Positions 11,277 through 49,737 of a DNA stretch of 51,423 nucleotides are shown in pieces. The notes under the pieces were generated by a model that worked only from the letters and a program-made list of their open reading frames with translations, was not told the origin of the DNA and ran no database searches. This stretch comes from Candidatus Woesearchaeota archaeon. GTDB taxonomy: Archaea; Nanobdellota; Nanobdellia; Woesearchaeales; GW2011-AR9. Position 1 is the first letter of the stretch. Each line of letters begins with the position of its first letter. The position numbers were made by a program, and so were the translations under genes. The stretch lies in the NCBI GenBank assembly GCA_018303285.1, contig JAGVYL010000019.1, positions 1 to 51,423 on the forward strand. The letters are read 5' to 3'.

Positions 11277-11402
11277 AAAGAAGAGGATATTCCGATAGTT
11301 TAAAAAATTAAGTGCCCTTAAATACTACACCTACTGAAAATACCTATCCTACCGCAGATAGTTTTAAATATTCCTACTCTATTCTTGCATCTGGTGATAC
11401 TT

Positions 11403-12599: not shown

Positions 12600-12758
12600 T
12601 TATTTTTTTATTTTTATTGATTAATTTTTAATTATTCAATGCATCTCTCTTAATCTTTAATCAGATTTATAAACCCAAAAGATTTCTCTCGGGATATAGT
12701 CCTAAATATAATAGGATATTAGTAAATATCATAAGACATCATAAAAAAGAGGCAATTT

Positions 12759-14627: not shown

Positions 14628-14633
14628 ACAAAA

Positions 14634-15485: not shown

Positions 15486-15555
15486 GTGGGATGTTTAAAC
15501 TCTTCTCCAGTATAAAATAGAAAGATATAAAAAAGCCAGAATAATCTCTCTTCAA

Positions 15556-16479: not shown

Positions 16480-16500
16480 TTTTTTTCTTTTTACTGCTCC

Positions 16501-16508
16501 AAAACAAG
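16501..16508. repeat. left copy of 8-bp direct repeat aaaacaag (putative target-site duplication)
   Basis: Identical to 16624-16631 and immediately abuts the inverted-repeat element. Confidence 0.5.
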
Positions 16509-16623
16509 GTATGTGCATAGCGCGAATATCGCCAGCGAGTGAACAAAGTTCATCATTAGACGGTACTTGGTGTTTCATTACGAGATGCTTTGAATGAAAC
16601 ACACGAGCGAGCTATGCACATAC
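16509..16623. mobile_element. 115-bp MITE-like element with terminal inverted repeats
   Basis: gtatgtgcatagc (16509-16521) is the perfect reverse complement of gctatgcacatac (16611-16623). With one mismatch the match extends to 16 bp. An internal 10-bp hairpin gtgtttcatt/aatgaaacac is present. There is no coding capacity, and the element is flanked by the 8-bp direct repeat. Confidence 0.55.
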
Positions 16624-16631
16624 AAAACAAG
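16624..16631. repeat. right copy of 8-bp direct repeat aaaacaag
   Basis: Identical to 16501-16508. Confidence 0.5.
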
Positions 16632-16708
16632 AAAACTATTTAAATACCAAGATAAACCTCAATTATAATAATTAAGTTTAACTATATCAACAAAAAGGAG
16701 GAGAAAAC

Positions 16709-22139: not shown

Positions 22140-22272
22140 TCCCCCCTCCCGGACTCGAACCGGGGATTCCTCGGTGACTATTGGCTGACTGAGTTTCATT
22201 CAGAGCATTTGTGCTTCGTCCCTCAGCGCATAAAGCTACAGCCGAGTGTTCTAGCCACTAAACTAAGAAGGA
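22140..22272 (-). tRNA. tRNA-Tyr(GUA) with a 60-nt intron after position 37
   Basis: Cloverleaf: acceptor tccttct/agggggg (three G-U pairs), D arm gttt-agtggcta-gaac, anticodon stem ctcgg/ccgag with loop cuGUAg..a, T arm cccgg-ttcgagt-ccggg. The D arm closely resembles archaeal tRNA-Tyr. Confidence 0.7.
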
Positions 22273-25109: not shown

Positions 25110-25202
25110 GCTCCGGTGGTCTAGCTCGGCCAAGGACACAGCCCTTTCAAAGATAAGAACTAGAGAAAGGCTGTAACCCGGGTTCAAATCCCGGCCGGAG
25201 TA
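25110..25202 (+). tRNA. tRNA-Glu(UUC) with an 18-nt canonical intron
   Basis: gctccgg/ccggagt acceptor, D arm gtct/ggac, anticodon stem cagcc/ggctg with loop cuUUCa[18 nt]a, T arm ccggg-ttcaaat-cccgg. Close to archaeal tRNA-Glu consensus. Confidence 0.9.
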
Positions 25203-25782: not shown

Positions 25783-27965
25783 TTACGCCCCGACCATCGC
25801 GTCAGTCAGTTTCTTCCTCGTCTTGATTTCCTGCACCACTCGGGTTTGCAGTTCGAAAGGCAGCTTTTCGAAGCTTTGGTCGACCAGTGAAGAAACTCCT
25901 CGGCCTTCTGTTGCGCTTCTTAATTCAGAACTCCACCCCAGCATATTCATTACCGGCATCTTTGCTTTGATAGCCACCTGATGCTCTTCTTGTATCAAAT
26001 CAAGCAATTGACCTCTCATGCTGGTCACTAATTTAGTCAATGTTCCAGTATATTCTGAAGGAGCTTCAATTAACATTACCTGCAACGGTTCGTATAAGAC
26101 TGCTCCACCAGTCATCATTGCCCCCCGAATACCTTCACGGATAGCGGGATAGACCTGAGCCGGACCTCGATGGATTGCATCTTCATGCAGTTTCATATCT
26201 ACCAGATTAACTTTTACTTTGATGCAGGGTTCTCTTACTAAAGGACCATGGCGCATTACTTCTTCAAACATGTCCAAGATTAATTCTATCACTTCGTGCA
26301 TATAGACTTGGCCTTTAGTTTTATCCAAAAACAGATTGCCTTGATAGATATCCTTCACTTGATCTGCTTCTTTAGAATCCATTCCTACTGCCATCAAGGA
26401 TTCTCTTAATTCCAAATTTTTCTTTTTTGTTTTACCTTCTTGGATTTTTCCTTCTTTGATAGCGGTAGAAATCTCTTCAGAAAGCGGCTCCACAGTAAAA
26501 TAAAATTTGTTATGCTTATTGGGAGTCTTTCCTTCTACCTCTTGAGAAAGTTTGGTAAGTGTTTCTCTAAAGACTACAATCGGCTGAGAAGTTTCTACCT
26601 CTACTCCTTTTTCGGTCTTAATTCTATTTTCAATGATTTCCAGATGAAGTTCTCCCATTCCGGACATTAAATTTTCCCCGGTTTCTTCATTTATTTCAAT
26701 TTTAATAGAAGGATCTTCTCGTCCTACTTTTCGCAGTACTTCAATCAGCTTAGGCAGATCCATCTGCTTCTTCGGCTTGATGGCTTTAGTGATAACCGGC
26801 TCAAAGATATGTTTTAACTCTTCAAAGGCCTCTTCCGGCTCGACAGTTACAGTCTCTCCGGCATTGCCTACCACTCCGGAAATAGCTAAAATGTTTCCTG
26901 CCGGCAGACTGTCTACTAATTCTGGCTTGATTCCGTGATAAATGTAAACGTTTTGGATTCTTTGTCTTACTTTGGCATTATTCAGATAAACTTCCATTCC
27001 GCTGCGGATTGTGCCAGAAAACAAACGTCCGGCAGAGATATCTTTTCCGCTGCGCGGGTCAACTACAATTCTGGTGATGACAAAAGCTAATTTTCCGTCA
27101 GGATTAGTAGTCAATAAATCTTTGCCGAATTCGCTTTCCATATCTCCGTGCCAGATGCGGGGGATGCGATATTTTTGGGCATCGACAGGATCAGGATGAT
27201 GTTTGATGACCATATCTAACATTACTTCATAGAGCGGAGCATTTTCCCAGACCCATTTCTTTCTCTCTTCTTCTTCCAGTTCATAAATATGAAGAATATC
27301 CTTGAATCCAATACCTTTTTTCTGCATAAAAGAAAGAGACAATGCCCAGTTCTCTCTTGCAGAGCCAAACGCCACGCTTCCGTCTTGGATGCTTACTTTC
27401 CATTTCTCTGCAAACTGCGGCTCGGCAATTCGTTCTATCAATTTATTAAAATCCATGATTAACTTGATGAATCTTTCTTGAATCTTTTCAGGAGATAGTT
27501 TTAACTCTTTCACTAAACGGTCTACTTTATTGATAAAAAGAACTGGTTTGACTCTCTCTCGAAGAGCCTGCTTGACTACCGTCTTCCCTCTACTGCGCAG
27601 ATAAGGACAACTGTTCCGTCTACTGCTCTCATTGCTCGAGTGACATTGCCTCCAAAATCAACGTGCCCAGGAGTATCAATCAGATTAATGAGGTATTCTT
27701 CACCATGGTAAATGTGAACCATAGAAACATTGGCTGCATCCACCGTCATCAGTCTTTCCTGCTCATCCAAGTGCTGCCAAGTAGCCATACCTTCTTCCAA
27801 ATCTCCTGCGGACTTAGAGGACATCAAACCGGCTGCAGCTAGCAAATTATCTGTTAAAGCAGTCTTTCCATGATGAATATGGGCAGAGGTGCAGATATTC
27901 CTGATGAACTTGGGATTCTTGGTGATTCTGGCCACCTTCTCAATCATTGTTCCAGCTGATGCCAT
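25783..27965 (-). pseudogene. fusA: translation elongation factor aEF-2, interrupted by a frameshift near 27585
   Basis: The N-terminal ORF (27576-27965) holds G1 AHIHHGKT and G3 DTPGH and ends ..AVEGRR*. The other frame continues immediately with [24 protein letters not shown] and the rest of aEF-2, including the diphthamide site HEDAIHRG. The conserved (A/V)MPQT between AVEG and (E/K)TV is missing. Confidence 0.85.
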
Positions 27966-29431: not shown

Positions 29432-29689
29432 ATGGAAGGAAACATTGTTAATTTCCGCCGGGGAAAAAGGACTGTCCATCATTACCAGATGATTATTCGC
29501 ATCAATGGCGTTTCTAACAAAGAAAAAGCTCAGGCCGCCGTAGGAAAAACAATAGTCTGGACCAGCCCGGCCGGCAAGGAACTGAAAGGCAAGATTTCTG
29601 CCCCCCACGGAAGGAACGGCCAGGTACGGGCCATCTTCGAGACCGGTATGCCCGGACAGGCCATCGGCAGCAAAGTCAAAGTTATCTAA
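29432..29689 (+). CDS. rpl35ae: 50S ribosomal protein L35Ae
   Basis: GNIVNFRRGKRT....MIIRINGV..KEKA...VGK.IVW.....K.L.GKI...HG.NG.VRA.FE.G.PGQA.G..V matches the family. Confidence 0.9.
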   Translation: MEGNIVNFRRGKRTVHHYQMIIRINGVSNKEKAQAAVGKTIVWTSPAGKELKGKISAPHGRNGQVRAIFETGMPGQAIGSKVKVI

Positions 29690-29690
29690 T
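29628..29690 (+). repeat. 63-bp perfect direct repeat, copy 1 (last 20 codons plus stop of rpl35ae)
   Basis: gggccatcttcgagaccggtatgcccggacaggccatcggcagcaaagtcaaagttatctaat is identical to 30993-31055. Confidence 0.95.
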
Positions 29691-29704
29691 CGGAGAAAGT
29701 TTCT

Positions 29705-30922
29705 TCAAACAAGTTCTTTTTCAAGGAACTCCTCTAGCGGGAAAATATTTTCTTTTTTCAATGATTTGGTAATCAACCGCAAGATAAATTCCTGATGCTT
29801 TTGACTGAATTTTTTTAGTCCTTCCTCTTCCCGAAGGGGAATCTCATTGCTGGAAGTTACGTTTATCGCAGTTTTTCCTGCTACAAAATCTACTTCCGAC
29901 TCGCCATCTCCCCAATAACTTATTTCGCTATACTGCTCAACAAGTTTTATCAGTACCGCATTTTCAAACATCTGCCCCACGTTTTTGGAATATCTTACTT
30001 GAATGGCGTTTATTAAGCCTAAATCCAAGCAATAAAATTTAGGCAATTTGGCGATGTCATGCCTCACTTTGAGGGAATAGGAAAAAAAAGTTACTTCAAA
30101 CAGCAAGTACGCATCTAGCATATAACTAATGTAAGTTTGTAAGGTATCTTTAGCCAAACCAAACATTTTTGACAGTTTATTTATACTTACTTTTGAGCCT
30201 GAAGCGGCAACTAAATATCTCGCCAATTCCATCACTTGCTTGGTATTTCTTATAGCGTACCGATCGATAATATCTTTATGAATAATATCTTCAAAATACT
30301 GTTGTAAAAGAAAAGTTTTCTTCTCCTCTGATTTTTCCAAGACTACTTCGGGGAATCCTCCATAATGGAAATATTCTTCGGTATTTCCAGAAGGAGAAAA
30401 AAGAAGAAATTCGCTGAAAGAAAGCGGCAGGACTGTGAACGATAGATTTCTTCCAGTTAGAAGAGTGGATAATTCTTTTGAGAGCAACGATGCTGAAGAG
30501 CCGGAAAGAATAAATTTGATATTTTCTCCGAGATCGTATTTTGTCCTGATCCATTTTTCCCAGGAAGAAATCTTTTGGATTTCATCTATAAAAAAATAGA
30601 CTTTTCCCTTATTCTTTGCATACTGCTGGTAAGTATCCAACACCTCATCAAATAGTTCCAGCGTGAGATTATCCGCAAAGCCATAGTCTTCAAGATTTAG
30701 GTAAAGGATTTGTTTTTTATCCTTTCCAGCGTTAAGCAATTCTTCCATCAATTGCCTAAGGAGGGTGGATTTGCCGCTGCGCCTTATGCCCTTCAAAACT
30801 AATACCTCTTTTCTTTCCATAAAAGGCATGATTTTTTTGATGTATTTTTCCCTCTTAACACCCGAGGATATTTTCCTCTCCCAAAGATTCCATTTTTGCA
30901 GTATTTCGATTATCCCTTTCAT
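29705..30922 (-). CDS. AAA-type ATPase with DUF4143-like C-terminal domain
   Basis: Walker A GIRRSGKST, Walker B YFFIDEIQ, and a C-terminal wHTH/restriction-fold-like region. It is a paralog of 48478-49737. Confidence 0.85.
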   Translation of the reverse strand: MKGIIEILQKWNLWERKISSGVKREKYIKKIMPFMERKEVLVLKGIRRSGKSTLLRQLMEELLNAGKDKKQILYLNLEDYGFADNLTLELFDEVLDTYQQYAKNKGKVYFFIDEIQKISSWEKWIRTKYDLGENIKFILSGSSASLLSKELSTLLTGRNLSFTVLPLSFSEFLLFSPSGNTEEYFHYGGFPEVVLEKSEEKKTFLLQQYFEDIIHKDIIDRYAIRNTKQVMELARYLVAASGSKVSINKLSKMFGLAKDTLQTYISYMLDAYLLFEVTFFSYSLKVRHDIAKLPKFYCLDLGLINAIQVRYSKNVGQMFENAVLIKLVEQYSEISYWGDGESEVDFVAGKTAINVTSSNEIPLREEEGLKKFSQKHQEFILRLITKSLKKENIFPLEEFLEKELV

Positions 30923-30944
30923 ACCATGTAACCATTTCCTGTCT

Positions 30945-30975
30945 ATTTATAAAGGTTTCCAATATGTTGGAAACC
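30945..30975 (-). promoter_or_regulatory. TATA box plus adjacent perfect 9-bp palindrome upstream of the ATPase gene
   Basis: tttataaa (minus-strand sense) lies about 25-30 nt from the ATG at 30922. ggtttccaa-tatg-ttggaaacc is at 30954-30975, 17 nt from repeat copy 2. Confidence 0.45.
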
Positions 30976-30992
30976 ATATCAAAAAGCAGATT

Positions 30993-31055
30993 GGGCCATC
31001 TTCGAGACCGGTATGCCCGGACAGGCCATCGGCAGCAAAGTCAAAGTTATCTAAT
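30993..31055 (+). repeat. 63-bp perfect direct repeat, copy 2 (orphan copy of the rpl35ae 3' end)
   Basis: Identical to 29628-29690. No upstream rpl35ae reading frame is attached. Confidence 0.95.
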
Positions 31056-31127
31056 AATTTTCTTTAGAAAGCTAAAACCTTATATACTCCTTCTTATTTA
31101 TTTCGAAGATAAAAGAGAGTGTAACCT

Positions 31128-32825
31128 ATGGCCGAAGGACAAAGTGGAAGCGCTGTTAAATGGGTAGTTATTCTTATAATCTTGGCCTTTATCGGAGTAG
31201 CTGCTTTCATGGGTTTAAAAGGTGGGGGCTGGATGCGAGGAATTGATTTTTCCAAATTTACTTCCCCTACTTTTTTTCTGAATATTTTTTTAATCGGCGG
31301 ATTTATGATTTTGGTGGGATATTTTACTCCCCCATTTAAAGATGCTTTAAATCCCAAACAAGGTAAAACAGGAACTGCTGCGTATATACTAATCCTTCTA
31401 TTTATAGTGATTGGGGGGTACATCTCGTTTCAATTAGGGGATCTAAAAGTCTACCAGCATGAACTTATTAAATGGCTTTTTCCATTTCAAAACGATCAAT
31501 TCAACTTCAAGCCTTTAGCTAATGTCGGAATTTTCTGGTTTTTGATGGCGTTTATTCTTCCCATTCTTCCGTTGGGAAATATTGGAAAAAAAATTGGACA
31601 ATTCTTTCAAAAAAATGATGGAACCGCCAACACTCCTGGTTATGTCTTAGCTGTAGTTATAGCCCTAATTTTGGCCTACAATCTGGTCGAATTTGATGCT
31701 AGCAAAAATATTGTTAACGCTCCAGGTATTTGGGAACATTCTACGTTTACTGATGCGGAAAAGTTCCTCTTCGGAGAAAGGGCGCCTGATGCCGGTCTTT
31801 TCGGAGAGCATACCGGAACATATTCTTCTAAAGGAAAGCTCAAGTATGGCATTCTAAAGATAGAAGTTGATTCTGTAGGCAAAAAAGTTTATCCTTTGCC
31901 TGCAGGGATTATTGTGTTTATTTTGCTCCTTGCAGCCACGAGTTTAAGTGCAAGAATTCAACAAGGTTTGGGAGGCTTAGGCAACTTTAGACATTGGATC
32001 TTCGGATTTATTGCTGTTTTTGCTGCTAATAATGGAGTCTCCTTAAACGCAATATTATATGTGACTTATGTCGGAATAGTCTTTGCCGTTTATATGCCTC
32101 TCTCCGCGATACCTTTCTTCAACCAAGATGGGAGGAGGATTTGGGCCTTAGCCGCAGCAGTGATGGCAGCAGATTATTCTGCCCAGATTCTTGTCTCATT
32201 TGGTTTCTTTACTTCTCCGCCCCCCTTTATTCCCGGAGAAAGCCCAGTAACTAAACTCATTTGGTTGGTAGTGGGAGTATCCTTGTTTATCTTTTTAAGA
32301 TCTATAGGGAGCGGTGCTATCCGAAGCATTGCTTCTATTTACCGATGTAGTGCTTGCAATCGAAGATGCGAAGAAACACCTCCTGGTTCAGAAGATTACG
32401 TGTGTCCCCATTGCGGACCAACTCCTCCAACTTGTGAATCTGTAGGGGGATTAAGTGATGTAGGTTGCATGATAGGGATGGCGTTAGGAAGAAAACTTAA
32501 AGATAGTATCAACAATTGGAATGCCAGCCGGGAAGCTAAAAGAAGATTGATATTAGATATTGAAAATGAATTAAATTTGCCAACGCCAGACATTCCCGCT
32601 CTTACCGCTAATCTTGCTCAAGCAGTGGAAAACGGCTATTTTAATAAAGCTGGAGATATTCTAGCTAGGATAAACCGGCTGACCAATGATGCAGATAAAC
32701 TGAGTGTTTTACAAACAATTGTGGACGAGGAAAATGCTCGTACTACCAAAAAATTTGCTCCGGCAGAATTCACACTTTTGACTAATGAGTTAACTAGACT
32801 AACAACGCCACCCCCAACACCTTAA
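31128..32825 (+). CDS. polytopic (~10 TM) membrane protein with a C-terminal zinc ribbon and helical tail
   Basis: About ten hydrophobic segments read by eye, then CSAC..C-x11-CPHC and a predicted helical C-terminus ending in a TTPPPTP tail. Confidence 0.75.
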   Translation: MAEGQSGSAVKWVVILIILAFIGVAAFMGLKGGGWMRGIDFSKFTSPTFFLNIFLIGGFMILVGYFTPPFKDALNPKQGKTGTAAYILILLFIVIGGYISFQLGDLKVYQHELIKWLFPFQNDQFNFKPLANVGIFWFLMAFILPILPLGNIGKKIGQFFQKNDGTANTPGYVLAVVIALILAYNLVEFDASKNIVNAPGIWEHSTFTDAEKFLFGERAPDAGLFGEHTGTYSSKGKLKYGILKIEVDSVGKKVYPLPAGIIVFILLLAATSLSARIQQGLGGLGNFRHWIFGFIAVFAANNGVSLNAILYVTYVGIVFAVYMPLSAIPFFNQDGRRIWALAAAVMAADYSAQILVSFGFFTSPPPFIPGESPVTKLIWLVVGVSLFIFLRSIGSGAIRSIASIYRCSACNRRCEETPPGSEDYVCPHCGPTPPTCESVGGLSDVGCMIGMALGRKLKDSINNWNASREAKRRLILDIENELNLPTPDIPALTANLAQAVENGYFNKAGDILARINRLTNDADKLSVLQTIVDEENARTTKKFAPAEFTLLTNELTRLTTPPPTP

Positions 32826-32834
32826 GGAGGAAAA

Positions 32835-32987
32835 ATGAACCGCGAAAAAATTAAAGGATTGGTAAATGAGTATATTCGATTAAGCCAAACAGATGTACAA
32901 ACAGCCAGGAACATTTTAGGCGAAGAAAACTTTAAAAAGGTACTTAGCCGTCTTCCCTTGGAAAAAAGAAGAGTCTTACAAAAATGA
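32835..32987 (+). CDS. small (50 aa) helical protein
   Basis: Strong SD AAGGAGG lies 4 nt upstream. The stop overlaps the next start (ATGA). It is below the ORF-track cut-off. Confidence 0.5.
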   Translation: MNREKIKGLVNEYIRLSQTDVQTARNILGEENFKKVLSRLPLEKRRVLQK

Positions 32988-34087
32988 TTGATCTGCAACA
33001 AGCCAGTTATCTTGAACAGGAAGAGCGTTACTTAAAACAGCTCCTGCAAGGTTTAACAAAAGACCCTGGTGCGTGGGTAACTACTATCAACCAAAATCAA
33101 GGAAGAATCAAGGAGATACTCACCCATGGAAAACCTCTCCTCCGTCGATGGGTAGTGGAAAAATCTTTAGCTCGTTTACATTTAGAAGAATTACAGCTTC
33201 AGGCTCAAAAAAGCAGCCGCTTAAACAAATTTTTACTTGCAGTGGAAGCGGCTTCAGACACCCTGTCTCTCTTATCCGTTATCCACTTATTTAAAGATGC
33301 TCTACTTGATCCTTCGTCTGCAGAGGAAATAGAAAAATTGATTCTTCCTCTTCTCCGTTATCCTGATGAAATAAAACTTTTGAAGGAACTGGAAGTCCAG
33401 TTACTCTCTTTGGAAAAAGAATGGGAGAACAAAAACACGTTTAGAGATCCGTTAAAAGAAACTAAAGGATTGTATCATCGCATGCAAGATGAATTAATCT
33501 CCCAATTAAAAAAAGATTTCGGCGATTTGGAAACCGCAGAATTCTTAAAAAGTAATTTGCAAAGAGATGAATTCCGATTGCCTTTTCCCCGTCCGGGAAT
33601 ACTCCGACAATTAGTGGAAAGAACTCTTGCTGCTTTGCAGCTGCCGGAAAATCTTTCAAGAAAATTGACTGTGATTAAGCCTGCTCTTGTTAATTATATT
33701 CACGCAGAACAAGAAAAAATAAACCACAAGATGGAAAAGGAGATTGATAAACTCACAGGATACATCCAAGAACGTCTTGGAGAAATAGCCCAAAGCAATG
33801 CTGCTCTGGCAGATGATATTGACACTCGGTTCAACATCTTGGATGAATTTGTCCGTTTTCTTGATATTAATGCAGAGGAACTCCTTTCCAGTCAAGGAGT
33901 ACTATTCAGTTTAGAGCGAGAAAGAGATGAATCCCGCTTGAACACCGTAGTATCGGCTTATCTTGCTAAACAAAAAGAACTTTCCAGCGCATCAGAGAAA
34001 AGTCTTTCCCGTATCAAAACATTAAATGGAGTGGCTTTAAATCGTGAAGCCATTGCTGAAGATGCGTTAGCCAGTGCTTTAAAATGA
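32984..34087 (+). CDS. 367-aa helical/coiled-coil protein, no family recognised
   Basis: Heptad-rich Leu/Glu/Lys composition with no TM segment. Translationally coupled at both ends (ATGA). Confidence 0.7.
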   Translation: MIDLQQASYLEQEERYLKQLLQGLTKDPGAWVTTINQNQGRIKEILTHGKPLLRRWVVEKSLARLHLEELQLQAQKSSRLNKFLLAVEAASDTLSLLSVIHLFKDALLDPSSAEEIEKLILPLLRYPDEIKLLKELEVQLLSLEKEWENKNTFRDPLKETKGLYHRMQDELISQLKKDFGDLETAEFLKSNLQRDEFRLPFPRPGILRQLVERTLAALQLPENLSRKLTVIKPALVNYIHAEQEKINHKMEKEIDKLTGYIQERLGEIAQSNAALADDIDTRFNILDEFVRFLDINAEELLSSQGVLFSLERERDESRLNTVVSAYLAKQKELSSASEKSLSRIKTLNGVALNREAIAEDALASALK

Positions 34088-35178
34088 AGATAAAAAAAGG
34101 ATTTATGAAAAAGAGGATGATGGTGTTAATTTCATTACTATTCATTCTCTTCCTTTTTCCTATGGTTTCAGCCCAAGGATTCTTAGACAATCTTCGTTAC
34201 GGTACTACTGGTTTAGGTCTTTATGATACAAATAAAACATTGATTGACTTTCTATTTTTCTTTACCCTATTCTTGTCTATCAATTGGATTTCTCTTAAGA
34301 GAGTATACGGAAAAGATAGTAAAGAACGCGGCCCTCTCTTAGGGATTGCCATTGTTGTTTCTTTAGCTCTTGCCATTGGCGCTTTAAAGGCCGGCCTCAG
34401 CCCCTCATTTCTTATTCCCTTTATGCAGTATATCTTCTTTTTTATCGGTGTGGCTTTTGCTTATTTAATCATCGTCTGGCTGGGCAAAATAGAAAAATGG
34501 TGGGCTAAGCTTTTGGCATTTCTCTTCGCCTTCCTCTTAGTTTGGATTATTCTTAATATCGGCAGCTACCTTCTTGTCGGAGGAGGAGATTCAAATGCAG
34601 AAGTGGAAGGAGAAAGCTTCTGGGATCAAACTAAAGCTACGCTTAGCGAGATGTTGGATTCGTTATGGGCTATACCTGGAGAACTAATCGAAGAAGAGAC
34701 AATACCAACAGAAGAACCGGCTGAAGAAACTCCTCCAGAAGAAGAAACCTCTGAAGGGGAAGTAACACCAGAAGAAGACGCAACTGAAGAGACTCCTCCC
34801 GAAGAAGTTCCAGAAGACACACCAGAAGAGGAAACTCCTCCCACAGAACTAGAAACCATTCCTATTCCAATTGAACCTGAATCCACTCCTGCTCCAAAAA
34901 CACCAACAGGAGAACCTGATGAAGAAACATCGGCTGGATGGTTCAGCAGATTAGATACTTGGATAAACAAGAACCCCTTTCTTGCGGGGGGAGGATTTAT
35001 ACTTCTTCTAATAGCTTCAATCATGGGGGGTGCAATTGGTATACCTAAAATATTTAAGTATAAAGAGGAACGGCATCCTGCTTTCTTATCTGAAGATTTA
35101 GAAAATTTAGAACGTGTTATGGACAATCCGGATGAATTAGAGTATATACAATCTGTAGAAGATTATCCCTGGAAATAA
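34084..35178 (+). CDS. membrane protein with signal peptide, ~4 TM segments, an acidic Glu/Pro/Thr linker and a final TM plus cytoplasmic tail
   Basis: MMVLISLLFILFLFPMVSA|QG, the linker EEPAEETPPEEETSEGEVTPEEDATEETPPEEVPEDTPEEETPP, and the late TM FLAGGGFILLLIASIMGGAIGI. Confidence 0.75.
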   Translation: MKIKKGFMKKRMMVLISLLFILFLFPMVSAQGFLDNLRYGTTGLGLYDTNKTLIDFLFFFTLFLSINWISLKRVYGKDSKERGPLLGIAIVVSLALAIGALKAGLSPSFLIPFMQYIFFFIGVAFAYLIIVWLGKIEKWWAKLLAFLFAFLLVWIILNIGSYLLVGGGDSNAEVEGESFWDQTKATLSEMLDSLWAIPGELIEEETIPTEEPAEETPPEEETSEGEVTPEEDATEETPPEEVPEDTPEEETPPTELETIPIPIEPESTPAPKTPTGEPDEETSAGWFSRLDTWINKNPFLAGGGFILLLIASIMGGAIGIPKIFKYKEERHPAFLSEDLENLERVMDNPDELEYIQSVEDYPWK

Positions 35179-35181
35179 AAA

Positions 35182-35841
35182 ATGGCAAAAAAAACCTCTG
35201 AGCTTAGAGCAGAAGAAGTGCTTAAACTGAGTAATCTAATCGGCAAGTCTAATACAAAATTAGATCGGATTATTGATTCTTACCAAACAGAAATCAAAGA
35301 AAGATTTGGTTCCGTAGACAAGTTTAAAGAGTTTATTCGACGTTATCCAAAATGGCATAAAGACATCACTCAATTTTTAAGAGTTTTGAAGCTAAGACTC
35401 CAAGCCAAAAAACAATCCGCGAAAACAAGTAACGCACACATAGAGAATCTTTCGATTGAACGCACCATTGGTGTAGTAGACTATCTACTTAAGGAATTTG
35501 AAGAGCATCGGTATAATAGGCTAAAAGACGCATTCGACAACATCCTCATTGAACTTAGACCTATTGTTCGGGGAACTGTAGAAGAAGAATCAGAAGACTA
35601 TTCACAAGATGGTGAAAGAACGAAATTAGAACAACGAAAGGAAAATCTGAAAGGTCAGATACGAGTAGCTAAAAATGGAATTAATGCAATAAAAATGGGA
35701 AAAACGAAGTATTCCTTAAAAGAGTGTTCCGCAATAGAAGAAATAATAAAAAAGCAAGAAGATGAGATAAGAAGTATAAATCTTAGGTTAGGATTACATA
35801 AGGAGAACGGCATAATAATCTCTGGATCTGCTGAAGTATAA
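35182..35841 (+). CDS. 219-aa helical protein; N-terminal ~65 aa homologous to 36733-37122
   Basis: Ungapped match by eye: SYQTEIKERFGSVDKFKEFIRRYPKWHKDITQFLRVL against AFETEIHSAGYTPEKYAKLVIEYKTWLNEVESWFKAL. Confidence 0.7.
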   Translation: MAKKTSELRAEEVLKLSNLIGKSNTKLDRIIDSYQTEIKERFGSVDKFKEFIRRYPKWHKDITQFLRVLKLRLQAKKQSAKTSNAHIENLSIERTIGVVDYLLKEFEEHRYNRLKDAFDNILIELRPIVRGTVEEESEDYSQDGERTKLEQRKENLKGQIRVAKNGINAIKMGKTKYSLKECSAIEEIIKKQEDEIRSINLRLGLHKENGIIISGSAEV

Positions 35842-36040
35842 AAGACATCCTCTCCTCGAGATGAAGAAGCTCTTTATCAAGAAGCTGTAGCCATTGCTCG
35901 GCGTAGAAAATCTACTTCCGCTAATGGCTTCAACGTGATCTTAAAAAAATTATTGACAAAATAGTTTTATTGCATAAATAAACACAAATTATCTAAGTCT
36001 TAACGGAAAAGCTTAAAAACGTAGATTTATTCCTTTAGAT

Positions 36041-36736
36041 ATGGCCGATGAAGCTAAACCCGCTGCTAAAAAGAGTACTAATTGGGGGGTATTCTTCCTT
36101 AAGGTATTCTTAATCCTTCTCTTGATATATTTGATTCTCGTTCCCGGAGTAAACATTCTTTACAACTGGGGAGACACTGGAGGATTCCATCTTAGAGCAA
36201 AAGATTTCTCTCCCCTTACTACTTGGAAAAACATTCAATTGTCTATTAAATCCGTAGGAAACGAGATAGATTCTGTTTCCGAAGATGATGCAGAAACTAT
36301 TCCAGAAGAAGATACTATTAAAGAAGGAACAGAGGACGAGTCCGCAGCTCCTCCTACAGATGAATCTGAAACATCACCAATTGAAGAAACAACTTCTGAT
36401 TCCCTCACCTCTGCAAAAGATTATAAAAAGTGCGATAAAGATGAAGATTGCAAAGATGAAAATAAATTCTATTGCGAAAACAAACAATGTAAATCATATT
36501 GTGGCGAGGCGGCAAGCTGTTCGAAAGGGGAGAAATGCGATGACGATACTAATCGATGTGTTTCTACCAGTTGGATATCGGGGAATTGGTGGTGGATATT
36601 AGTTGGAATAGTTATAATCCTCGGAGGCATATTTGGTCTTAAAAAATGGCGAACTGGCCGCTCCGGAGGAGGAACTCCCTCTTCTCCTCCATCAGGTGCT
36701 CCTGCAGCCAGCAGTGCAGTCAGTGGAACACCATGA
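36041..36736 (+). CDS. bitopic membrane protein with an acidic linker and a Cys-rich module
   Basis: N-terminal TM (WGVFFLKVFLILLLIYLILV), an acidic stretch, eight Cys in KKCDKDEDCKDENKFYCENKQCKSYCGEAASCSKGEKCDDDTNRC, a second TM (WWWILVGIVIILGGIFGL), and a Ser/Pro/Gly tail. Confidence 0.7.
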   Translation: MADEAKPAAKKSTNWGVFFLKVFLILLLIYLILVPGVNILYNWGDTGGFHLRAKDFSPLTTWKNIQLSIKSVGNEIDSVSEDDAETIPEEDTIKEGTEDESAAPPTDESETSPIEETTSDSLTSAKDYKKCDKDEDCKDENKFYCENKQCKSYCGEAASCSKGEKCDDDTNRCVSTSWISGNWWWILVGIVIILGGIFGLKKWRTGRSGGGTPSSPPSGAPAASSAVSGTP

Positions 36737-37122
36737 AAACTGAAGAACTAAAACAGGGAAAGAAAAACCTAGCTATTACCCGGCTGGCCCACCTCTCTCC
36801 AAAAAAAATTTCAGAATTATGCCGCGCATTTGAAACTGAAATTCATTCTGCAGGATACACTCCGGAAAAATACGCCAAACTGGTGATAGAATACAAAACC
36901 TGGTTGAACGAAGTAGAATCGTGGTTTAAGGCGCTGGAAAAAGATTTTTCTGCTAACAAAAAGATTCAAGACATAATACTAGTTTTAAGAGAAGAGATTG
37001 AAGATAAAAATGCTTCGCTTCACAAAATTTATGCAGATTACGCTATCTTAGGAAAATTAGTAGAAGATGCTAAAAAAGCTTCTCTTCCCGCTTCCTTACC
37101 AAAAAATGAAAGAACTGCTTAA
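36733..37122 (+). CDS. 129-aa helical protein, paralog of the 35182 N-terminal domain
   Basis: The ATG overlaps the upstream stop (ATGA). The longer ORF-track start at 36646 lies inside the upstream gene. Confidence 0.65.
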   Translation: MKTEELKQGKKNLAITRLAHLSPKKISELCRAFETEIHSAGYTPEKYAKLVIEYKTWLNEVESWFKALEKDFSANKKIQDIILVLREEIEDKNASLHKIYADYAILGKLVEDAKKASLPASLPKNERTA

Positions 37123-37414
37123 AATAATTACGGGGATATTTGCAGAAGAAGACGCAGAGAAGAAGAAACAACTTATAATCTATCTTCAGCAGCTTCTTCT
37201 GGGAAAAATTTCTTCTATAAAAAAGGAAAAAGAAAGAAAAAGATATCTCGCATTATTAGACTTACTGAAAGAGGGGAAAATCAAACAGATGCAGGAGAAA
37301 ATCCATTCATACTTGAAAAAAGATAAATCCCGGTTTCCTTGGTGGATATTCCTTATTATCCTGTTACTTCTCTTGATTACAGGATTTTTTCTCTTTAAAT
37401 TAAAGATCTTCTAA
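37106..37414 (+). CDS. small tail-anchored protein (helical N-terminus, C-terminal TM)
   Basis: C-terminal FPWWIFLIILLLLLITGFFLF. Alternative ATG at 37067. Confidence 0.55.
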   Translation: MKELLKIITGIFAEEDAEKKKQLIIYLQQLLLGKISSIKKEKERKRYLALLDLLKEGKIKQMQEKIHSYLKKDKSRFPWWIFLIILLLLLITGFFLFKLKIF

Positions 37415-37957
37415 GTAGTCCAAAAACTTCTGGTATTTTCCCAGCTCTACTTCGAAACCACCAATAAACTCTATAGTTTTATTTACTTCACCCAATATCG
37501 CATCGACATGCTGTCGAGCTCTGATTAGGGAGGAACTTTTTACTCTGGCATCTTTTGCTTCCGCTGCCTGGTCTACTTCTTTTTCCAAATCATCTAACCC
37601 TTGCTTTAACGCACCAGTATAACGTGATGCTTTTTGTATAAAAAAGTTCAAAGCTATCTCTATCAGTTTATCCATATCAGCTAACTGTGCTTTAAGCTTT
37701 TGCGGGAGATATCCCATCAACTCAGCGATATCTTTTTTAAGATCAACTTTGCTCAGGTATCTCTCAGTTCTCCCTAAGCTTCCCCGTACAATACTAATTG
37801 CCTCTCTTACGTCTTTTTCGCTCCGTTTAGGATTAGTTCCTAAATCAGATTTTAAAAGGATTAATTCATCATGTAATTTTTGCAGATATTTATACTCAGC
37901 CGCTGCCTGCCCAATCTCTTGTATCGCATCTTTCTTTAAATCTTTAATTTCTTTCAT
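37400..37957 (-). CDS. 185-aa helical protein, convergent with the operon
   Basis: ATG-initiated ORF with helical composition. Its 3' end overlaps the 37106 gene by 15 nt. Confidence 0.65.
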   Translation of the reverse strand: MKEIKDLKKDAIQEIGQAAAEYKYLQKLHDELILLKSDLGTNPKRSEKDVREAISIVRGSLGRTERYLSKVDLKKDIAELMGYLPQKLKAQLADMDKLIEIALNFFIQKASRYTGALKQGLDDLEKEVDQAAEAKDARVKSSSLIRARQHVDAILGEVNKTIEFIGGFEVELGKYQKFLDYLEDL

Positions 37958-38156
37958 TTAGCCCACCTCGTTTAATTAATCATCAGTTAAACGATAAAAT
38001 AAGTCGGATTATATAAAATTAACCCTTCGTTAACATTTATATATCATAAACGCCCATAAAATATTAAAAAATACTTTATTTGACCATGGACATCACTTTT
38101 TTCGATTACTATTTATTAGTAGAAAAACTTATAAATAAACAAATTTTCTTATTGAT

Positions 38157-38600
38157 ATGGATTTCCCCATTTTAGAAGAAATCGCTAAAGCGGGTCATTC
38201 TTATGCCCCCCCAATGGGCTACGGCTTAGTTAGCGGAGGAGCTGCGTATATAGCACTTTCTATCGCTCGAGGTCTTCGCCGGGGAACTAATCTTGTTCGA
38301 CAGTTGCATTCTCAACCAAATATCGCTGTTGGCTTAGGTACAGGAGCAGTTACTGCCATTATCTTAGAAAATACTCAACCAGCGTTAGGAGGAACTTTAG
38401 ATCACATTGCCCTGTATACAGGTATGGCCGTAGGAGGTGGCTTGGTCGGTGGTGCTCTCAATCCAGTTTATAATGCTCTTAGAACCGAAGATGGAATAAC
38501 TGATGATTTCCGCCAGCACTTTAAGCGGGGCGCTCTCAGAGGAGCATTGGCTCTTCCTGCTTGTTTTGGAGTTTTAGATGTTTTATCTCATTATTTCTGA
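38157..38600 (+). CDS. Gly-rich small membrane protein
   Basis: GxxxG-rich hydrophobic stretches (GLVSGGAAYIALSIA, VGLGTGAVTAIIL, GMAVGGGLVGGAL). Confidence 0.6.
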   Translation: MDFPILEEIAKAGHSYAPPMGYGLVSGGAAYIALSIARGLRRGTNLVRQLHSQPNIAVGLGTGAVTAIILENTQPALGGTLDHIALYTGMAVGGGLVGGALNPVYNALRTEDGITDDFRQHFKRGALRGALALPACFGVLDVLSHYF

Positions 38601-48477: not shown

Positions 48478-49737
48478 TCAAACTGTGTCTAAATTGTAGG
48501 GCAAAATAAACCTAACCGATTTGTCCTTTTTTTGTTTAGATAGATTTATTATAACCCCTTCAACTACTTGGGCGTATGATTCAAGAAAAACATTAAGGCT
48601 CTTCTGATTTTCAAGCTTTAATTCTTCTTTAAACTTAACTTCCAGAGGAATACTCTTGCCGTCTTTCTCCAAAATAAAGTCTACTTCATTAAAATTTTTA
48701 TCCTGCCAAAATCTAATCCCTTTATTGCCCCGCTTAAGCAGCTCTGATAAGATAAAACCTTCAAATAAAAATCCCGAATCATTTCGTAACCTCAATTCAT
48801 TGAAATTATTTATAAAATAATTCCTCACCCCATTATCCAAGAAATAAATCTTTGGTATCTTCACTAATTCTTTGTTTTTATTGGTGTAAAATGGCCGGAT
48901 TTCTTTAATCAGGTACGTTTCGAACAGAACTTCGAGGTATTTTTTTATCTCATTAAAACTCAGGGAAGTTATTTTAGAAATTTCTTCATATTTTATCTTT
49001 TGCCCGTTATTTATCGCTAAAAACTCAATTAATTTTTTAACTTCTAAAAGTTTATTGATATTAAGATATTCCACCAGATCTTTTTTTACGTATAAATCAA
49101 AAATACTCTCTAAAACCAATTTTTTTTCTTCAAGGCTATGTTTTAGGGCGACCTCAGGATAACCTCCAAAAATCATAAATTCTTCCATAAATCGCCGGTA
49201 GTCTTTTAGCGATTGATTTAGCTTATCTCCTTTCAATTTGGAAAGGTTCTTCAGATTGCTGGCTAGTTTGTCCTCATTTTTAAAAGTTAAAAATTCTTCA
49301 AAATCTAAGGGAAATATCTCGAGGATTATTTTTCTTCCGGCCAAAGATTCCTGAATTTGATTTTTTATGGCAAGGGAAGACGAGCCGGAGGCAAAGATTT
49401 TGACATTGGGCAGATTATCATACACATTCTTCATAATTTTTGAAACTGCAGAATACCTCTGGAATTCATCCAAGAACAAATAAAAAAATTCTGTTTGCTT
49501 TTCGCTATATCCGTTAATCTTCAGCAGATTTAAAAGACTCTCAAAAGTGCTTATCTTTTCATAATTGCTTAGGATGTCTAAATCCAAAAACAAGCATTTA
49601 TTTTTAAGAGAGAGCTCCTCAGAAAGCATTTTCAGAAGGGTTGTTTTGCCTACCTGCCTCGCTCCGATTAGCAGGGAAATCTTTCTGTCTTTGGCTTGAG
49701 CTTCCAGTTTTTTCAATATTTTTCTCGTCAATGCCAT
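48478..49737 (-). CDS. AAA-type ATPase with DUF4143-like C-terminal domain (second copy)
   Basis: Walker A GARQVGKTT and Walker B LFLDEFQ. Same architecture as 29705-30922. A 9-bp AT-rich palindrome, tctaaaatt/aattttaga, lies at 49740-49768 just upstream. Confidence 0.85.
   Translation of the reverse strand: MALTRKILKKLEAQAKDRKISLLIGARQVGKTTLLKMLSEELSLKNKCLFLDLDILSNYEKISTFESLLNLLKINGYSEKQTEFFYLFLDEFQRYSAVSKIMKNVYDNLPNVKIFASGSSSLAIKNQIQESLAGRKIILEIFPLDFEEFLTFKNEDKLASNLKNLSKLKGDKLNQSLKDYRRFMEEFMIFGGYPEVALKHSLEEKKLVLESIFDLYVKKDLVEYLNINKLLEVKKLIEFLAINNGQKIKYEEISKITSLSFNEIKKYLEVLFETYLIKEIRPFYTNKNKELVKIPKIYFLDNGVRNYFINNFNELRLRNDSGFLFEGFILSELLKRGNKGIRFWQDKNFNEVDFILEKDGKSIPLEVKFKEELKLENQKSLNVFLESYAQVVEGVIINLSKQKKDKSVRFILPYNLDTV

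What the first reader, a model, noticed from the sequence alone, without database searches (positions are those of the whole stretch)
31128..38600. Ten-gene locus of membrane and coiled-coil proteins with no recognisable family: best candidate for an undescribed system
I cannot place any of ten consecutive ORFs (nine on +, one convergent) in a known family.
- A ~10-TM protein ending in a zinc ribbon and helical tail.
- A 50-aa ORF with SD AAGGAGG.
- A 367-aa all-helical protein.
- A signal-peptide/multi-TM protein with a Glu/Pro/Thr acidic linker and a terminal TM.
- A 219-aa helical protein.
- A bitopic acidic Cys-rich protein.
- Two further small helical proteins, one of them tail-anchored.
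- A convergent 185-aa helical protein.
- A Gly-zipper-like membrane protein.
The reading frames are tightly coupled: ATGA overlaps at 32984, 34084 and 36733, and a 3-nt gap before 35182. That points to stoichiometric co-expression. I see no ATPase, nuclease, polymerase, integrase or capsid-like signature, so it does not resemble the defence, secretion, pilus or provirus modules I know. The alternation of membrane proteins with cytoplasmic coiled-coil partners suggests an envelope-associated scaffold, membrane-remodelling or cell-contact apparatus; that is inference only. The locus begins about 70 bp after the 63-bp insertion scar at 30993-31055.
Basis: partly seen in the sequence, partly recalled or inferred. 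Interest (0 to 1): 0.8.

Follow-up and report, generated by a model that had tools for sequence, protein, structure and literature searches.

The report
Conserved DPANN membrane gene cluster
A run of genes for membrane and helical proteins in a tiny groundwater archaeon is a real, anciently conserved operon that matches nothing known; it most likely builds an envelope-spanning complex that displays rapidly changing binding modules on the cell surface.

Summary
The ten ORFs exist as described, and all are under purifying selection (dN/dS 0.08-0.29 against a sister genome). No Pfam, NCBIfam, PHROG, PADLOC or PDB match explains any window protein.

The organism is a Woesearchaeota-like DPANN archaeon from groundwater. 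The locus is not a set of orphan genes. An exhaustive HMMER search found 17 clusters of P1 relatives in 1.84 billion proteins. In seven deeply diverged lineages (L35Ae about 52% identical) the same order recurs: L35Ae | P1-P2-P3-P4-(P5/P7)-P9(-).

The conserved core is therefore P1-P7 plus P9. P8 and P10 are specific to the window's genus.

New findings:
- P5 and P7 are paralogues, each following a surface protein (P4, P6).
- The P4 ectodomain is hypervariable: an acidic linker here, PAN/Apple and Cys-rich repeats elsewhere.
- P5 orthologues carry a genuine FtsK gamma DNA-binding domain. In the window this domain is a decayed relic.
- The "63-bp scar" is a duplication of the L35Ae 3' end that flanks an inserted AAA_14 gene.

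My best reading is a vertically inherited trans-envelope complex that displays binding modules, possibly a cell-contact complex. The function is inferred, not shown.

The parts
29432..29689 (+). Ribosomal protein L35Ae gene. It is the conserved upstream anchor of the cluster in every lineage.
   Evidence: Translation. L35Ae (PF01247) lies directly upstream of P1 in L007, L009, L091, L092, L094-L098, L100 and L101.
29705..30922 (-). AAA_14/DUF4143 ATPase gene. It is an insertion and not part of the cluster. It is bounded by a perfect 63-bp direct repeat (29628-29690 and 30993-31055).
   Evidence: Pfam hit. Repeat. The gene is absent at this site in L007 and L009.
31060..31127 (+). P1 promoter and leader. 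The TATA-like CCTTATATAC lies at 31078-31087. The 68 nt are invariant within the genus.
   Evidence: 100% identity in the window, L007 and L009. The element TAAATATTTATAWACTC is shared by deep lineages. No significant RNA fold was found.
31128..32825 (+). P1: polytopic (about 10 TM) hub protein. It has a conserved ~70-aa loop (W-E..F..E.FLLGxR...HTGxY...RYGIL...PL) and an AANxG motif. A cytoplasmic zinc ribbon (C407/C410/C426/C429) and a variable helical tail follow.
   Evidence: dN/dS 0.087. No PDB or BFVD structural match.
32835..32987 (+). P2: 50-aa basic helical protein. It is conserved, and it is fused to the N-terminus of P3 in L096.
   Evidence: dN/dS 0.097. SD sequence and ATGA overlap.
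32984..34087 (+). P3: 367-aa soluble protein with no TM segments and no Cys. It carries an invariant PFPRPGPL-type motif.
   Evidence: Alignment A6. Present in all lineages. No PDB sequence match.
34084..35178 (+). P4: signal peptide plus a conserved 4-TM base (about residues 1-170). A hypervariable ectodomain follows; here it is only an acidic Glu/Pro/Thr repeat linker. The protein ends with a C-terminal TM and a cytoplasmic tail.
   Evidence: Linker repeats. Strain-level 29-aa indel. Orthologues carry PAN, Cys-rich or OmpA-like modules.
35182..35841 (+). P5: cytoplasmic helical protein whose N-terminal ~75-aa domain is paralogous to P7. In the window it is truncated by a premature stop.
   Evidence: Alignments A2 and A8. 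hhalign of P5N against P7: probability 92.6%, E 4e-7. dN/dS 0.29.
35842..35965 (+). Decayed remnant of the FtsK gamma (winged-helix) domain that ends P5 in sister genomes. The changes are TCA->TAA, a 1-nt deletion and a deletion of about 80-100 bp.
   Evidence: Intact domain in L007 and L009: Pfam E 6e-23 and 1e-21. PDB FtsK gamma 2j5o/2ve8, E 2e-11.
36005..36020 (+). BRE/TATA-like element GGAAAAGCTTAAAAAC before P6. It is probably an internal promoter.
   Evidence: Conserved in the window, L007 and L009 although the flanking sequence diverges. The motif alone is not more frequent in the window than chance.
36041..36736 (+). P6: bitopic surface protein. It has an N-terminal TM, an acidic linker, one Cys-rich module, a C-terminal TM and a Gly/Ser/Pro tail.
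   Evidence: Orthologues in L092 and L094 have many Cys-rich repeats.
36733..37122 (+). P7: 129-aa cytoplasmic helical protein, a paralogue of the P5 N-domain. It is fused with a P5-like domain in L101.
37067..37414 (+). P8: 115-aa tail-anchored protein. It is found only in the window's genus.
   Evidence: No counterpart in distant loci.
37400..37957 (-). P9: convergent 185-aa helical protein. It is the conserved terminal gene of the cluster.
   Evidence: phmmer E 1e-22 to 4e-15 against the 188-189-aa convergent genes in L094, L095 and L096. HMM E 1e-43 in L098 and 8e-34 in L101. dN/dS 0.079.
38157..38600 (+). P10: 147-aa Gly/Ala-rich protein. It is genus-specific, and its membership of the module is doubtful.
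   Evidence: Conserved in L009 (90.5% identity, dN/dS 0.13). Absent from distant clusters, which end at P9 followed by S19e.

Best explanation
The locus is a vertically inherited operon of a Woesearchaeota-like DPANN clade. It has its own promoter, with a probable second promoter before P6. It encodes a multi-protein complex that spans the cytoplasmic membrane.

Proposed parts:
- P1, a ~10-TM protein, is the hub. It has a conserved outward-facing loop and cytoplasmic zinc ribbon(s) with a helical tail.
- P2 and P3 are cytoplasmic partners. They are translationally coupled and are fused in one lineage.
- P4 and P6 are surface proteins. Each has a conserved membrane anchor and short cytoplasmic tail, and carries a rapidly changing ectodomain. 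That ectodomain is an acidic stalk in this genome and PAN/Apple, Dickkopf-like Cys-rich repeats or an OmpA-like module in others.
- Each surface protein is followed by a paralogous cytoplasmic helical adaptor: P5 after P4, and P7 after P6.
- P9 is a further conserved helical component.

The most likely job is to display and anchor binding modules on the cell surface and to couple them to a cytoplasmic scaffold. That would make it a cell-contact or adhesion complex of an episymbiotic archaeon. In the window's genus the P5 adaptor additionally acquired an FtsK gamma DNA-binding domain, which the window's own population has since lost.

Shown: the genes are real, the order is conserved, P5 and P7 are paralogues, the ectodomain is variable, the gamma domain is present in orthologues and decayed here, and no known family matches.

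Inferred: physical complex formation, membrane topology, and the adhesion function.
For: Real genes: dN/dS is 0.08-0.29 for all ten.

Operon structure:
- ATGA overlaps and a 3-nt gap link the genes.
- A TATA element is conserved in front of P1 in all lineages.

Deep conservation of order:
- The arrangement L35Ae | P1-P2-P3-P4-(P5/P7)-P9(-) is seen in L009, L092, L094/95, L096/97, L098 and L101.
- L007, L091 and L100 show the same start of the cluster (L35Ae | P1 ...), but their contigs end before P9.
- Family assignments by phmmer/hmmsearch range from E 1e-9 to 1e-198.
- The flanking L35Ae is only 51-54% identical between these lineages.

Functional linkage from gene fusions:
- P2 and P3 are fused in L096.
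- P5-like and P7-like domains are fused in L101.
- P5N and P7 are homologous: hhalign probability 92.6%, E 4e-7.

Surface display:
- P4 has a signal peptide, a 4-TM base, an ectodomain and a C-terminal TM.
- P4 ectodomain modules are PAN_1 at E 5e-12 in L094, DUF7107/Dickkopf at E 5e-5 in L092 and OmpA-like at E 0.007, full-length, in L101.
- The window has an acidic tandem-repeat linker that differs by a 29-aa block between strains of one population.

Other points:
- P1 has a conserved extracytoplasmic loop and Zn ribbons.
- A second, distinct cluster type again pairs a P1-like protein with a P4N-like protein.
Against: - No experiment, expression data or complex prediction is available, so physical association is inferred only from genomic linkage.
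- In the window itself the P4 ectodomain is just a ~130-aa acidic linker and P6 has a single Cys-rich module. An adhesin role is least obvious in this very genome.
- The OmpA and Dickkopf/DUF7107 matches are below Pfam's gathering scores.
- Topology rests on hydropathy and a medium-confidence AF2 model (pLDDT 68). The positive-inside count was not decisive.
- The cluster sits among ribosomal-protein genes, and in most lineages beside a HerA-like ATPase. That position would also fit a housekeeping role.
- Structure-based comparison was possible only for P1. The P5 model was too poor to use (pLDDT 50).
Confidence: 0.45

Rival explanations
1. Envelope-maintenance or surface-layer anchoring machinery. 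P4 and P6 would be stalked surface-layer-type proteins, with an acidic Thr/Pro/Glu stalk and a C-terminal TM anchor. P1, P3 and P9 would organise or insert them. The role would be housekeeping rather than host contact.
For: - The cluster holds a stable chromosomal position between ribosomal-protein genes in all lineages.
- Inheritance is vertical, with no mobility genes.
- The acidic Pro/Thr/Glu linker next to a C-terminal TM resembles the stalks of archaeal surface glycoproteins (my own knowledge).
- P4's TM base gives weak, recurrent hits to DUF2298 membrane proteins: E 0.09 and 0.007.
Against: - Ectodomains are too variable in kind and size (130 to more than 900 aa) for a lattice-forming layer protein.
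- The P1 family is rare, with 17 clusters in 1.84 billion representatives. A general envelope function would be expected to be more widespread in Woesearchaeota.
- None of the families occurs in the 80 other Woesearchaeota loci examined, although those loci cover only +/-10 kb around dnaG.
Confidence: 0.2
2. Chromosome-membrane tether or division-associated apparatus. In effect this would be a 'split FtsK': a polytopic membrane protein (P1), a gamma-domain DNA binder (P5) and the neighbouring HerA/FtsK-superfamily ATPase. Together they would position or move DNA at the membrane.
For: - P5 orthologues carry a full-length FtsK gamma domain: Pfam 76-81 bits against a cut-off of 30.6, and PDB FtsK gamma at E 2e-11.
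- A DUF87/HerA-like ATPase lies divergently next to L35Ae-P1 in L091, L092, L094-L098, L100 and L101.
- The window cluster abuts dnaG.
Against: - The gamma domain occurs only in the window's genus. P5 homologues in L092, L094, L098 and L101 lack it.
- The window population has lost the domain while keeping every other gene under purifying selection.
- The HerA-like gene is on the opposite strand and is far more conserved than the cluster proteins (E about 1e-250 between lineages whose P1 proteins are about 30% identical). It is also absent from the window, L007 and L009 neighbourhoods.
- The variable extracellular modules are unexplained by this model.
Confidence: 0.12
3. Remnant of an integrated virus, plasmid or other mobile element that encodes membrane proteins.
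For: - The proteins are unrecognisable, fast-evolving membrane and coiled-coil proteins.
- An insertion (the AAA_14 gene with a 63-bp duplication) lies directly upstream.
- The region between AsnRS and L35Ae is variable among relatives.
Against: - The cluster keeps the same chromosomal position and order in lineages whose L35Ae is only about 52% identical.
- There is no integrase, capsid or packaging gene, no PHROG hit above noise, and no relative of P1 or P3 in IMG/VR.
- P1 has no BFVD structural match.
- GC content is like the rest of the window.
- The upstream insertion is a separate single-gene event.
Confidence: 0.03
4. A chance run of unrelated lineage-specific orphan genes with no common function.
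For: About half of the ORFs in this window lack any Pfam hit, so runs of unannotated genes are expected in this genome.
Against: - Co-linear conservation of six families holds across seven lineages.
- The genes are translationally coupled.
- Two independent gene fusions link P2 with P3 and P5 with P7.
- All genes are under purifying selection.
Confidence: 0.03

Closest known systems
FtsK/SpoIIIE DNA translocases (gamma winged-helix domain, PF09397; PDB 2j5o, 2ve8)
   Same: P5 orthologues in the two sister genomes end in a full-length gamma domain. The window retains a recognisable DNA relic of it at 35842-35965. The protein is encoded beside membrane proteins.
   Different: There is no alpha/beta RecA-type motor and no FtsK 4-TM domain anywhere in the locus. 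The gamma domain is a late, genus-specific addition to a helical adaptor, and it is dispensable because the window has lost it.
Archaeal surface (S-layer-type) glycoproteins with a Thr/Pro/acidic stalk and C-terminal TM anchor (my own knowledge)
   Same: P4 and P6 have a signal or anchor sequence, an acidic Pro/Thr/Glu-rich linker, a C-terminal TM and a short cytoplasmic tail.
   Different: P4 has an additional conserved 4-TM base. The ectodomains vary in kind between lineages. Each gene is paired with a dedicated cytoplasmic adaptor gene. No sequence similarity to any described S-layer family was found.
Receptor-adaptor adhesion complexes (for example integrin-talin type). This is a functional analogy only.
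   Same: Bitopic surface proteins carry binding modules (PAN/Apple, Cys-rich repeats) and short cytoplasmic tails. They are genetically paired with helical cytoplasmic partners.
   Different: There is no homology. The comparison is an inference about how the complex might work, not about family membership.
Crenarchaeal Ced DNA-import system: polytopic CedA, small membrane proteins and the HerA/VirB4-like CedB (my own knowledge)
   Same: This is an archaeal cluster that combines a polytopic membrane protein with small membrane proteins. A HerA-like ATPase lies adjacent in most lineages. One component binds DNA in some genomes.
   Different: The ATPase is divergently transcribed, is not linked in the window, and looks like a housekeeping HerA. 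No profile for CedA was available to test similarity. The large variable ectodomains have no Ced counterpart.
Large adhesion-domain surface proteins of other DPANN archaea, such as the SPEARE proteins of Nanohaloarchaeota (my own knowledge)
   Same: They are surface proteins of episymbiotic DPANN with modular, fast-evolving adhesion domains.
   Different: SPEARE proteins are single giant polypeptides with protease and nuclease domains. Here the modules sit on a small conserved membrane base inside a multi-gene operon. No sequence relation was detected.

Membership tests
FtsK/SpoIIIE | C-terminal gamma winged-helix domain (PF09397), as found in orthologues of P5 | tested here: met
   L009 P5: E 1.3e-21, 76.5 bits. 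L007 P5: E 6e-23, 80.8 bits. The cut-off is 30.6 bits, and profile positions 2-62 of 63 are covered. A profile search of the PDB hits FtsK gamma 2j5o and 2ve8 at E 2e-11.
FtsK/SpoIIIE | Gamma domain intact in the window's own P5 | tested here: not met
   A stop codon lies at 35839-35841, followed by a 1-nt deletion and a deletion of about 80-100 bp relative to L007 and L009. All six contigs of this population encode the 219-aa form.
FtsK/SpoIIIE | RecA-type alpha/beta motor domain (PF01580) and N-terminal 4-TM domain | tested here: not met
   No such Pfam hit at E<=1 in any of the ten window proteins, nor at E<=0.1 in their L009 orthologues.
Integrated virus / plasmid | Integrase, capsid or packaging genes; viral protein families; presence on viral contigs; variable chromosomal position | tested here: not met
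   PHROG hits are all at E >= 0.005 and to families of unknown function. No IMG/VR relatives of P1 or P3. No BFVD fold match. Fixed position next to L35Ae in seven lineages.
Known anti-phage defence systems (PADLOC-DB) | A match to any component model | tested here: not met
   The only hits are low-complexity matches of the acidic linkers to PD-T4-6, at E 0.002-0.005.
ESCRT-III / PspA / Vipp1 membrane-remodelling proteins | A Snf7 or PspA_IM30 profile match in the helical proteins P3, P5, P7 or P9 | tested here: not met
   Neither family appears at E<=1 or at E<=0.1 in the orthologues. PDB profile searches give only coiled-coil noise. Fold-level similarity could not be tested because no usable models were obtained.
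Type IV pilus / archaellum / secretion modules | Secretion ATPase, polytopic platform protein (T2SSF), and prepilin-type signal peptides | tested here: not met
   No corresponding Pfam or NCBIfam hits. The P1 model has no PDB structural match; the best E is 0.26.
PAN/Apple-domain adhesion proteins | A PAN domain in the P4 ectodomain | tested here: inconclusive
   Met in the L094 orthologue: PAN_1 at E 5.4e-12, 45.8 bits against a cut-off of 21.4. A PAN-like stretch is visible in L092. It is absent from the window's P4, whose ectodomain is only an acidic linker.
Ced/Ted archaeal DNA-import systems | CedA-type polytopic protein with CedB HerA/VirB4-like ATPase in one operon | not testable with these tools
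   No CedA profile was found in the libraries used. The HerA-like gene (DUF87, E 5e-23) is adjacent in most lineages, but it is divergently transcribed and is absent next to the window locus.

The most novel reading that the evidence does not exclude
The cluster encodes a previously undescribed, DPANN-specific trans-envelope contact apparatus. A polytopic zinc-ribbon hub (P1, with P2, P3 and P9) holds two receptor-adaptor pairs (P4-P5 and P6-P7). Their interchangeable ectodomains (PAN, Cys-rich, OmpA-like, acidic stalk) would determine which host or surface the cell binds. In some genera the adaptor also tethers DNA through an FtsK gamma domain. This would be a molecular handle on how Woesearchaeota-type episymbionts attach to partners, and possibly exchange material with them.
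Probability: 0.2. Interest if true: 0.85.

Novelty: categorically new. Interest (0 to 1): 0.6.

Why it matters
Woesearchaeota and related DPANN archaea are abundant and uncultivated, and they are presumed to live attached to other cells. No attachment or exchange machinery has been identified for them.

This cluster is a defined, testable candidate:
- It has six co-inherited protein families and a clear modular logic. The membrane and cytoplasmic core is conserved, while the surface modules are swappable.
- Signature motifs in P1 and P4 can be used to find it in new genomes.

Even if the function proves to be housekeeping, the work adds new protein families, a new gene-neighbourhood marker for one DPANN clade, and an example of an FtsK gamma domain recruited outside a translocase and then lost.

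The label 'new' rests on the absence of matches in current profile and structure libraries. The literature tool failed, so published descriptions could not be excluded.

Tried and rejected
- Pfam, PHROGs, NCBIfam and PADLOC on all ten proteins and on their L009 orthologues gave only noise, apart from FtsK_gamma in the P5 orthologues.
- Word-indexed homology searches for P1, P3 and the P5 orthologue found only the same genus.
- I used DnaG as a synteny anchor in 80 Woesearchaeota genomes. No P1-P10 relatives lay near dnaG, and synteny was not conserved there. The true conserved anchor turned out to be L35Ae.
- IMG/VR scans for P1 and P3 found nothing.
- AF2 of the P5 orthologue with a 3-sequence alignment gave pLDDT 50, which is unusable.
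- AF2 of P1 with 16 sequences gave pLDDT 68. Foldseek against the PDB and BFVD found no match; the best E-values were 0.26 and 0.09.
- PDB profile searches for P1, P3, P7 and P9 gave only zinc-ribbon and coiled-coil noise, including coronavirus spike HR1 at E 4e-4 for P9. I regard that hit as heptad-repeat bias.
- P3 and P9 are not related to each other.
- The leader RNA fold is not significant, with z = -0.07.
- The P6 promoter motif is not enriched in the window.
- The positive-inside rule was not decisive for P1 topology.
- Three literature searches failed with time-outs.
- I rejected the ideas that the AAA_14 gene or the 63-bp repeat belongs to the system.

Full report
**1. What is in the window**

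The junctions are as described:
- AAGGAGG lies 6 nt before the P2 ATG.
- ATGA overlaps occur at P2/P3, P3/P4 and P6/P7.
- P4 and P5 are separated by 3 nt.

Hydropathy supports the descriptions:
- P1 has 9-10 TM segments, then a CxxC...CxxC ribbon.
- P4 has a signal peptide, four TM segments, an acidic linker and a terminal TM.
- P6 is bitopic, acidic and has 8 Cys.
- P8 is tail-anchored.
- P10 is Gly/Ala-rich but only moderately hydrophobic.

The flanks are archaeal housekeeping genes: aEF-2, AsnRS, L35Ae, DnaG, RFC, eRF1, PheRS and intron-containing tRNAs. The exact P1 sequence occurs on groundwater-metagenome contigs of up to 217 kb. The closest named relatives are 'Candidatus Nanoarchaeia' / Woesearchaeota.

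**2. Are these real genes and do they belong together?**

Two sister genomes carry the locus in the same order:
- L007 (GCA_053533715.1) carries P1-P6; its contig ends there.
- L009 (GCA_053533175.1) carries all ten genes, between L35Ae and DnaG.

Against L009, every ORF has dN/dS between 0.08 and 0.29, including the 50-aa P2 at 0.10. DnaG and AsnRS score 0.03-0.04. The ORFs therefore encode proteins under purifying selection that evolve faster than core genes.

**3. No known family**

Pfam, PHROGs, NCBIfam and PADLOC return nothing above noise for any window protein. PDB sequence-profile searches give nothing for P3, P7 and P9. P1 gives only zinc-ribbon noise.

This absence must be weighed against the base rate. 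Many other ORFs of the window also lack Pfam hits.

**4. Distant relatives and the conserved core**

Word-indexed searches found only the genus. An exhaustive profile search with P1 against 1.84 billion representatives found 17 clusters.

The P1 alignment shows a family defined by these features:
- a ~10-TM domain;
- a repeated FWIN...PPFK hairpin;
- a conserved ~70-aa loop (WE..F..E.FLLGxR...HTGxY...RYGIL...PL);
- an AANxG motif;
- one to four cytoplasmic zinc ribbons;
- a charged helical tail.

I fetched the contigs of six of these relatives and obtained one more locus from the metagenome scan. The arrangement is the same each time:
- a HerA-like DUF87 gene on the minus strand;
- L35Ae;
- P1;
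- a 35-50-aa P2;
- P3;
- a large P4;
- one or two P5/P7-type genes, with or without P6;
- a convergent ~185-aa P9;
- S19e and L31e.

Family membership was confirmed by phmmer and hmmsearch:

| Family | E-value range |
|---|---|
| P3 | 1e-52 to 1e-157 |
| P4 N-terminal base | 1e-36 to 1e-88 |
| P9 | 1e-34 to 1e-88 |
| P2 | 1e-9 to 1e-27 |

L35Ae itself is only 51-54% identical between the window and these lineages. The cluster is therefore old within this clade.

P8 and P10 have no counterparts outside the genus. None of the families occurs in 80 other Woesearchaeota loci, although those loci cover only +/-10 kb around dnaG.

**5. Internal logic**

- P5 (N-terminal ~75 aa) and P7 are homologous: hhalign probability 92.6%, E 4e-7.
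- Each follows a surface protein (P4, P6), so the operon contains a duplicated 'surface protein + cytoplasmic helical partner' pair.
- Gene fusions support functional linkage. P2 is fused to P3 in L096. A P5-like and a P7-like domain are fused in one 369-aa protein in L101.
- A distinct branch of the P1 superfamily lacks zinc ribbons. It lies in a different cluster, behind a translationally coupled AAA_16 ATPase, and that cluster again contains a P4N-like protein.

**6. The exposed parts are hypervariable**

The P4 base (signal peptide plus 4 TM, about 170 aa) is 35-49% identical across lineages. The ectodomain between it and the terminal TM differs in each lineage:
- In the window it is a ~130-aa Glu/Pro/Thr tandem-repeat linker. 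It differs by a 29-aa block among contigs of the same population.
- In L092 and L091 it consists of Cys-rich Dickkopf/DUF7107-like repeats.
- In L094 it contains a bona fide PAN domain: E 5e-12, above Pfam's cut-off.
- In L101 it has a weak but full-length OmpA-like match, E 0.007.

P6 likewise ranges from one to many Cys-rich modules. This is the pattern expected for surface-exposed binding modules.

**7. A recognisable domain after all**

P5 is 304-306 aa in L007 and L009. It ends in a full-length FtsK gamma domain:
- Pfam E 6e-23 and 1e-21;
- PDB FtsK gamma at E 2e-11.

The window's P5 stops at 219 aa. The DNA downstream (35842-35965) is a clear relic, with three lesions:
- TCA changed to TAA;
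- a 1-nt deletion;
- a deletion of about 80-100 bp.

P5 homologues in deeper lineages lack the domain. The gamma domain is therefore a genus-level gain that this population has lost. That history argues against DNA handling being the core function.

**8. Structure**

AF2 of P1 with 16 diverse sequences gave pLDDT 68 and pTM 0.48. The model has ten long helices, a small beta-sheet in the conserved loop, and a zinc-ribbon-like beta hairpin region.

Foldseek found no match in the PDB (best E 0.26, TM <= 0.2) or in BFVD (best E 0.09). The model is of medium quality, so this is weak negative evidence. AF2 of the P5 orthologue was unusable.

**9. Regulation**

- The 68 nt before the P1 ATG are identical in the three genus members, although dS is 0.35-1.0 in the genes.
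- Across deep lineages the shared element is TAAATATTTATAWACTC. I read it as a BRE/TATA promoter (interpretation from general knowledge of archaeal promoters).
- No significant RNA structure was found.
- A second conserved BRE/TATA-like element precedes P6.

**10. The '63-bp scar'**

The element at 30993-31055 is a perfect copy of 29628-29690, the 3' end of L35Ae. Between the copies lies the AAA_14/DUF4143 gene, which is absent at this site from L007 and L009. It is a single-gene insertion with a target duplication and is unrelated to the cluster.

**11. Interpretation**

Shown:
- The operon is conserved and vertically inherited.
- It comprises six or seven protein families without known relatives.
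- It mixes polytopic, bitopic and soluble helical proteins.
- It contains a paralogous receptor-adaptor pair.
- The ectodomains are hypervariable.

Inferred:
- The proteins form one trans-membrane complex.
- The P1 loop and the P4/P6 ectodomains face outward. This follows from placing the zinc ribbon in the cytoplasm and counting an even number of helices.
- The complex serves surface binding or cell contact.

Rivals:
- Envelope or surface-layer maintenance.
- A DNA-membrane tether working with the neighbouring HerA.
- A mobile element, which is largely excluded.
- Unrelated orphan genes, which is excluded for the core.

**12. Novelty and score**

No component other than the relic gamma domain, and modules in orthologues, relates to a described family or system. 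By exclusion the cluster lies outside known kinds.

Caveats:
- The function is unknown.
- Only P1 could be compared at fold level.
- The literature could not be searched.

I score interest at 0.6. This is a solid, well-delimited candidate for an undescribed DPANN envelope or contact system. It is not yet a demonstrated mechanism.

Noticed in passing
window 25783-27965 (minus strand), around 27584: The aEF-2 gene is split into two ORFs of 129 aa and 576 aa. The window lacks 16 nt that are present in the otherwise identical contig L001, where EF-2 is a single 726-aa ORF. This is either a frameshifting deletion or an assembly error in an essential gene.
   Followed up: partly
window 29628-31055: An AAA_14/DUF4143 ATPase gene (29705-30922, minus strand) is inserted at the 3' end of L35Ae. 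It is flanked by a perfect 63-bp direct repeat and is absent from sister genomes. A second AAA_14/DUF4143 gene lies at 48478-49737. This looks like a mobile single-gene cassette.
   Followed up: partly
window 35842-35965: A pseudogenised FtsK gamma domain lies downstream of P5. It has a premature stop, a 1-nt deletion and a deletion of about 80-100 bp relative to L007 and L009.
   Followed up: yes
window 34710-34897: The P4 acidic linker is encoded by 27-30-nt tandem repeats. The window copy lacks a 29-aa block that is present in other contigs of the same population (L001, L003, L004).
   Followed up: yes
window 31060-31127: The 68-nt P1 leader/promoter is 100% identical in three genomes whose coding regions have dS of 0.35-1.0. 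No significant RNA fold was found. The reason for such strong constraint is unexplained beyond the TATA element.
   Followed up: partly
L099 5562-7733; L102 9573-11408; L103: There is a second branch of the P1 superfamily without zinc ribbons. It is translationally coupled to an upstream AAA_16/ATPase_2 ATPase and is followed by five to eight large proteins of unknown family, one with a P4N-like domain. It may be a related but distinct system.
   Followed up: partly
L091, L092, L094-L098, L100, L101 (upstream of L35Ae): A highly conserved HerA-like DUF87 ATPase (~500 aa) is divergently adjacent to L35Ae-P1 in all distant lineages, often with a signal-peptide-peptidase gene beside it. It is not present near the window locus.
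   Followed up: partly
L096 6784-7230: A small (148 aa) paralogue of the P4 4-TM base (E 8e-11) is encoded between the SPP and DUF87 genes.
   Followed up: no
window 22140-22272 (-) and 25110-25202 (+): Rfam finds two tRNA genes of 133 nt and 93 nt that ARAGORN misses. They presumably contain introns, as is typical for archaea.
   Followed up: no
window 3159-7916 (-), 11385-17605, 22362-25046 (+): Other large ORFs (1585 aa, five consecutive ORFs, and 894 aa) also have no Pfam match. The 894-aa protein is conserved in L007 and L009. An LRR protein lies at 8985-10166.
   Followed up: no
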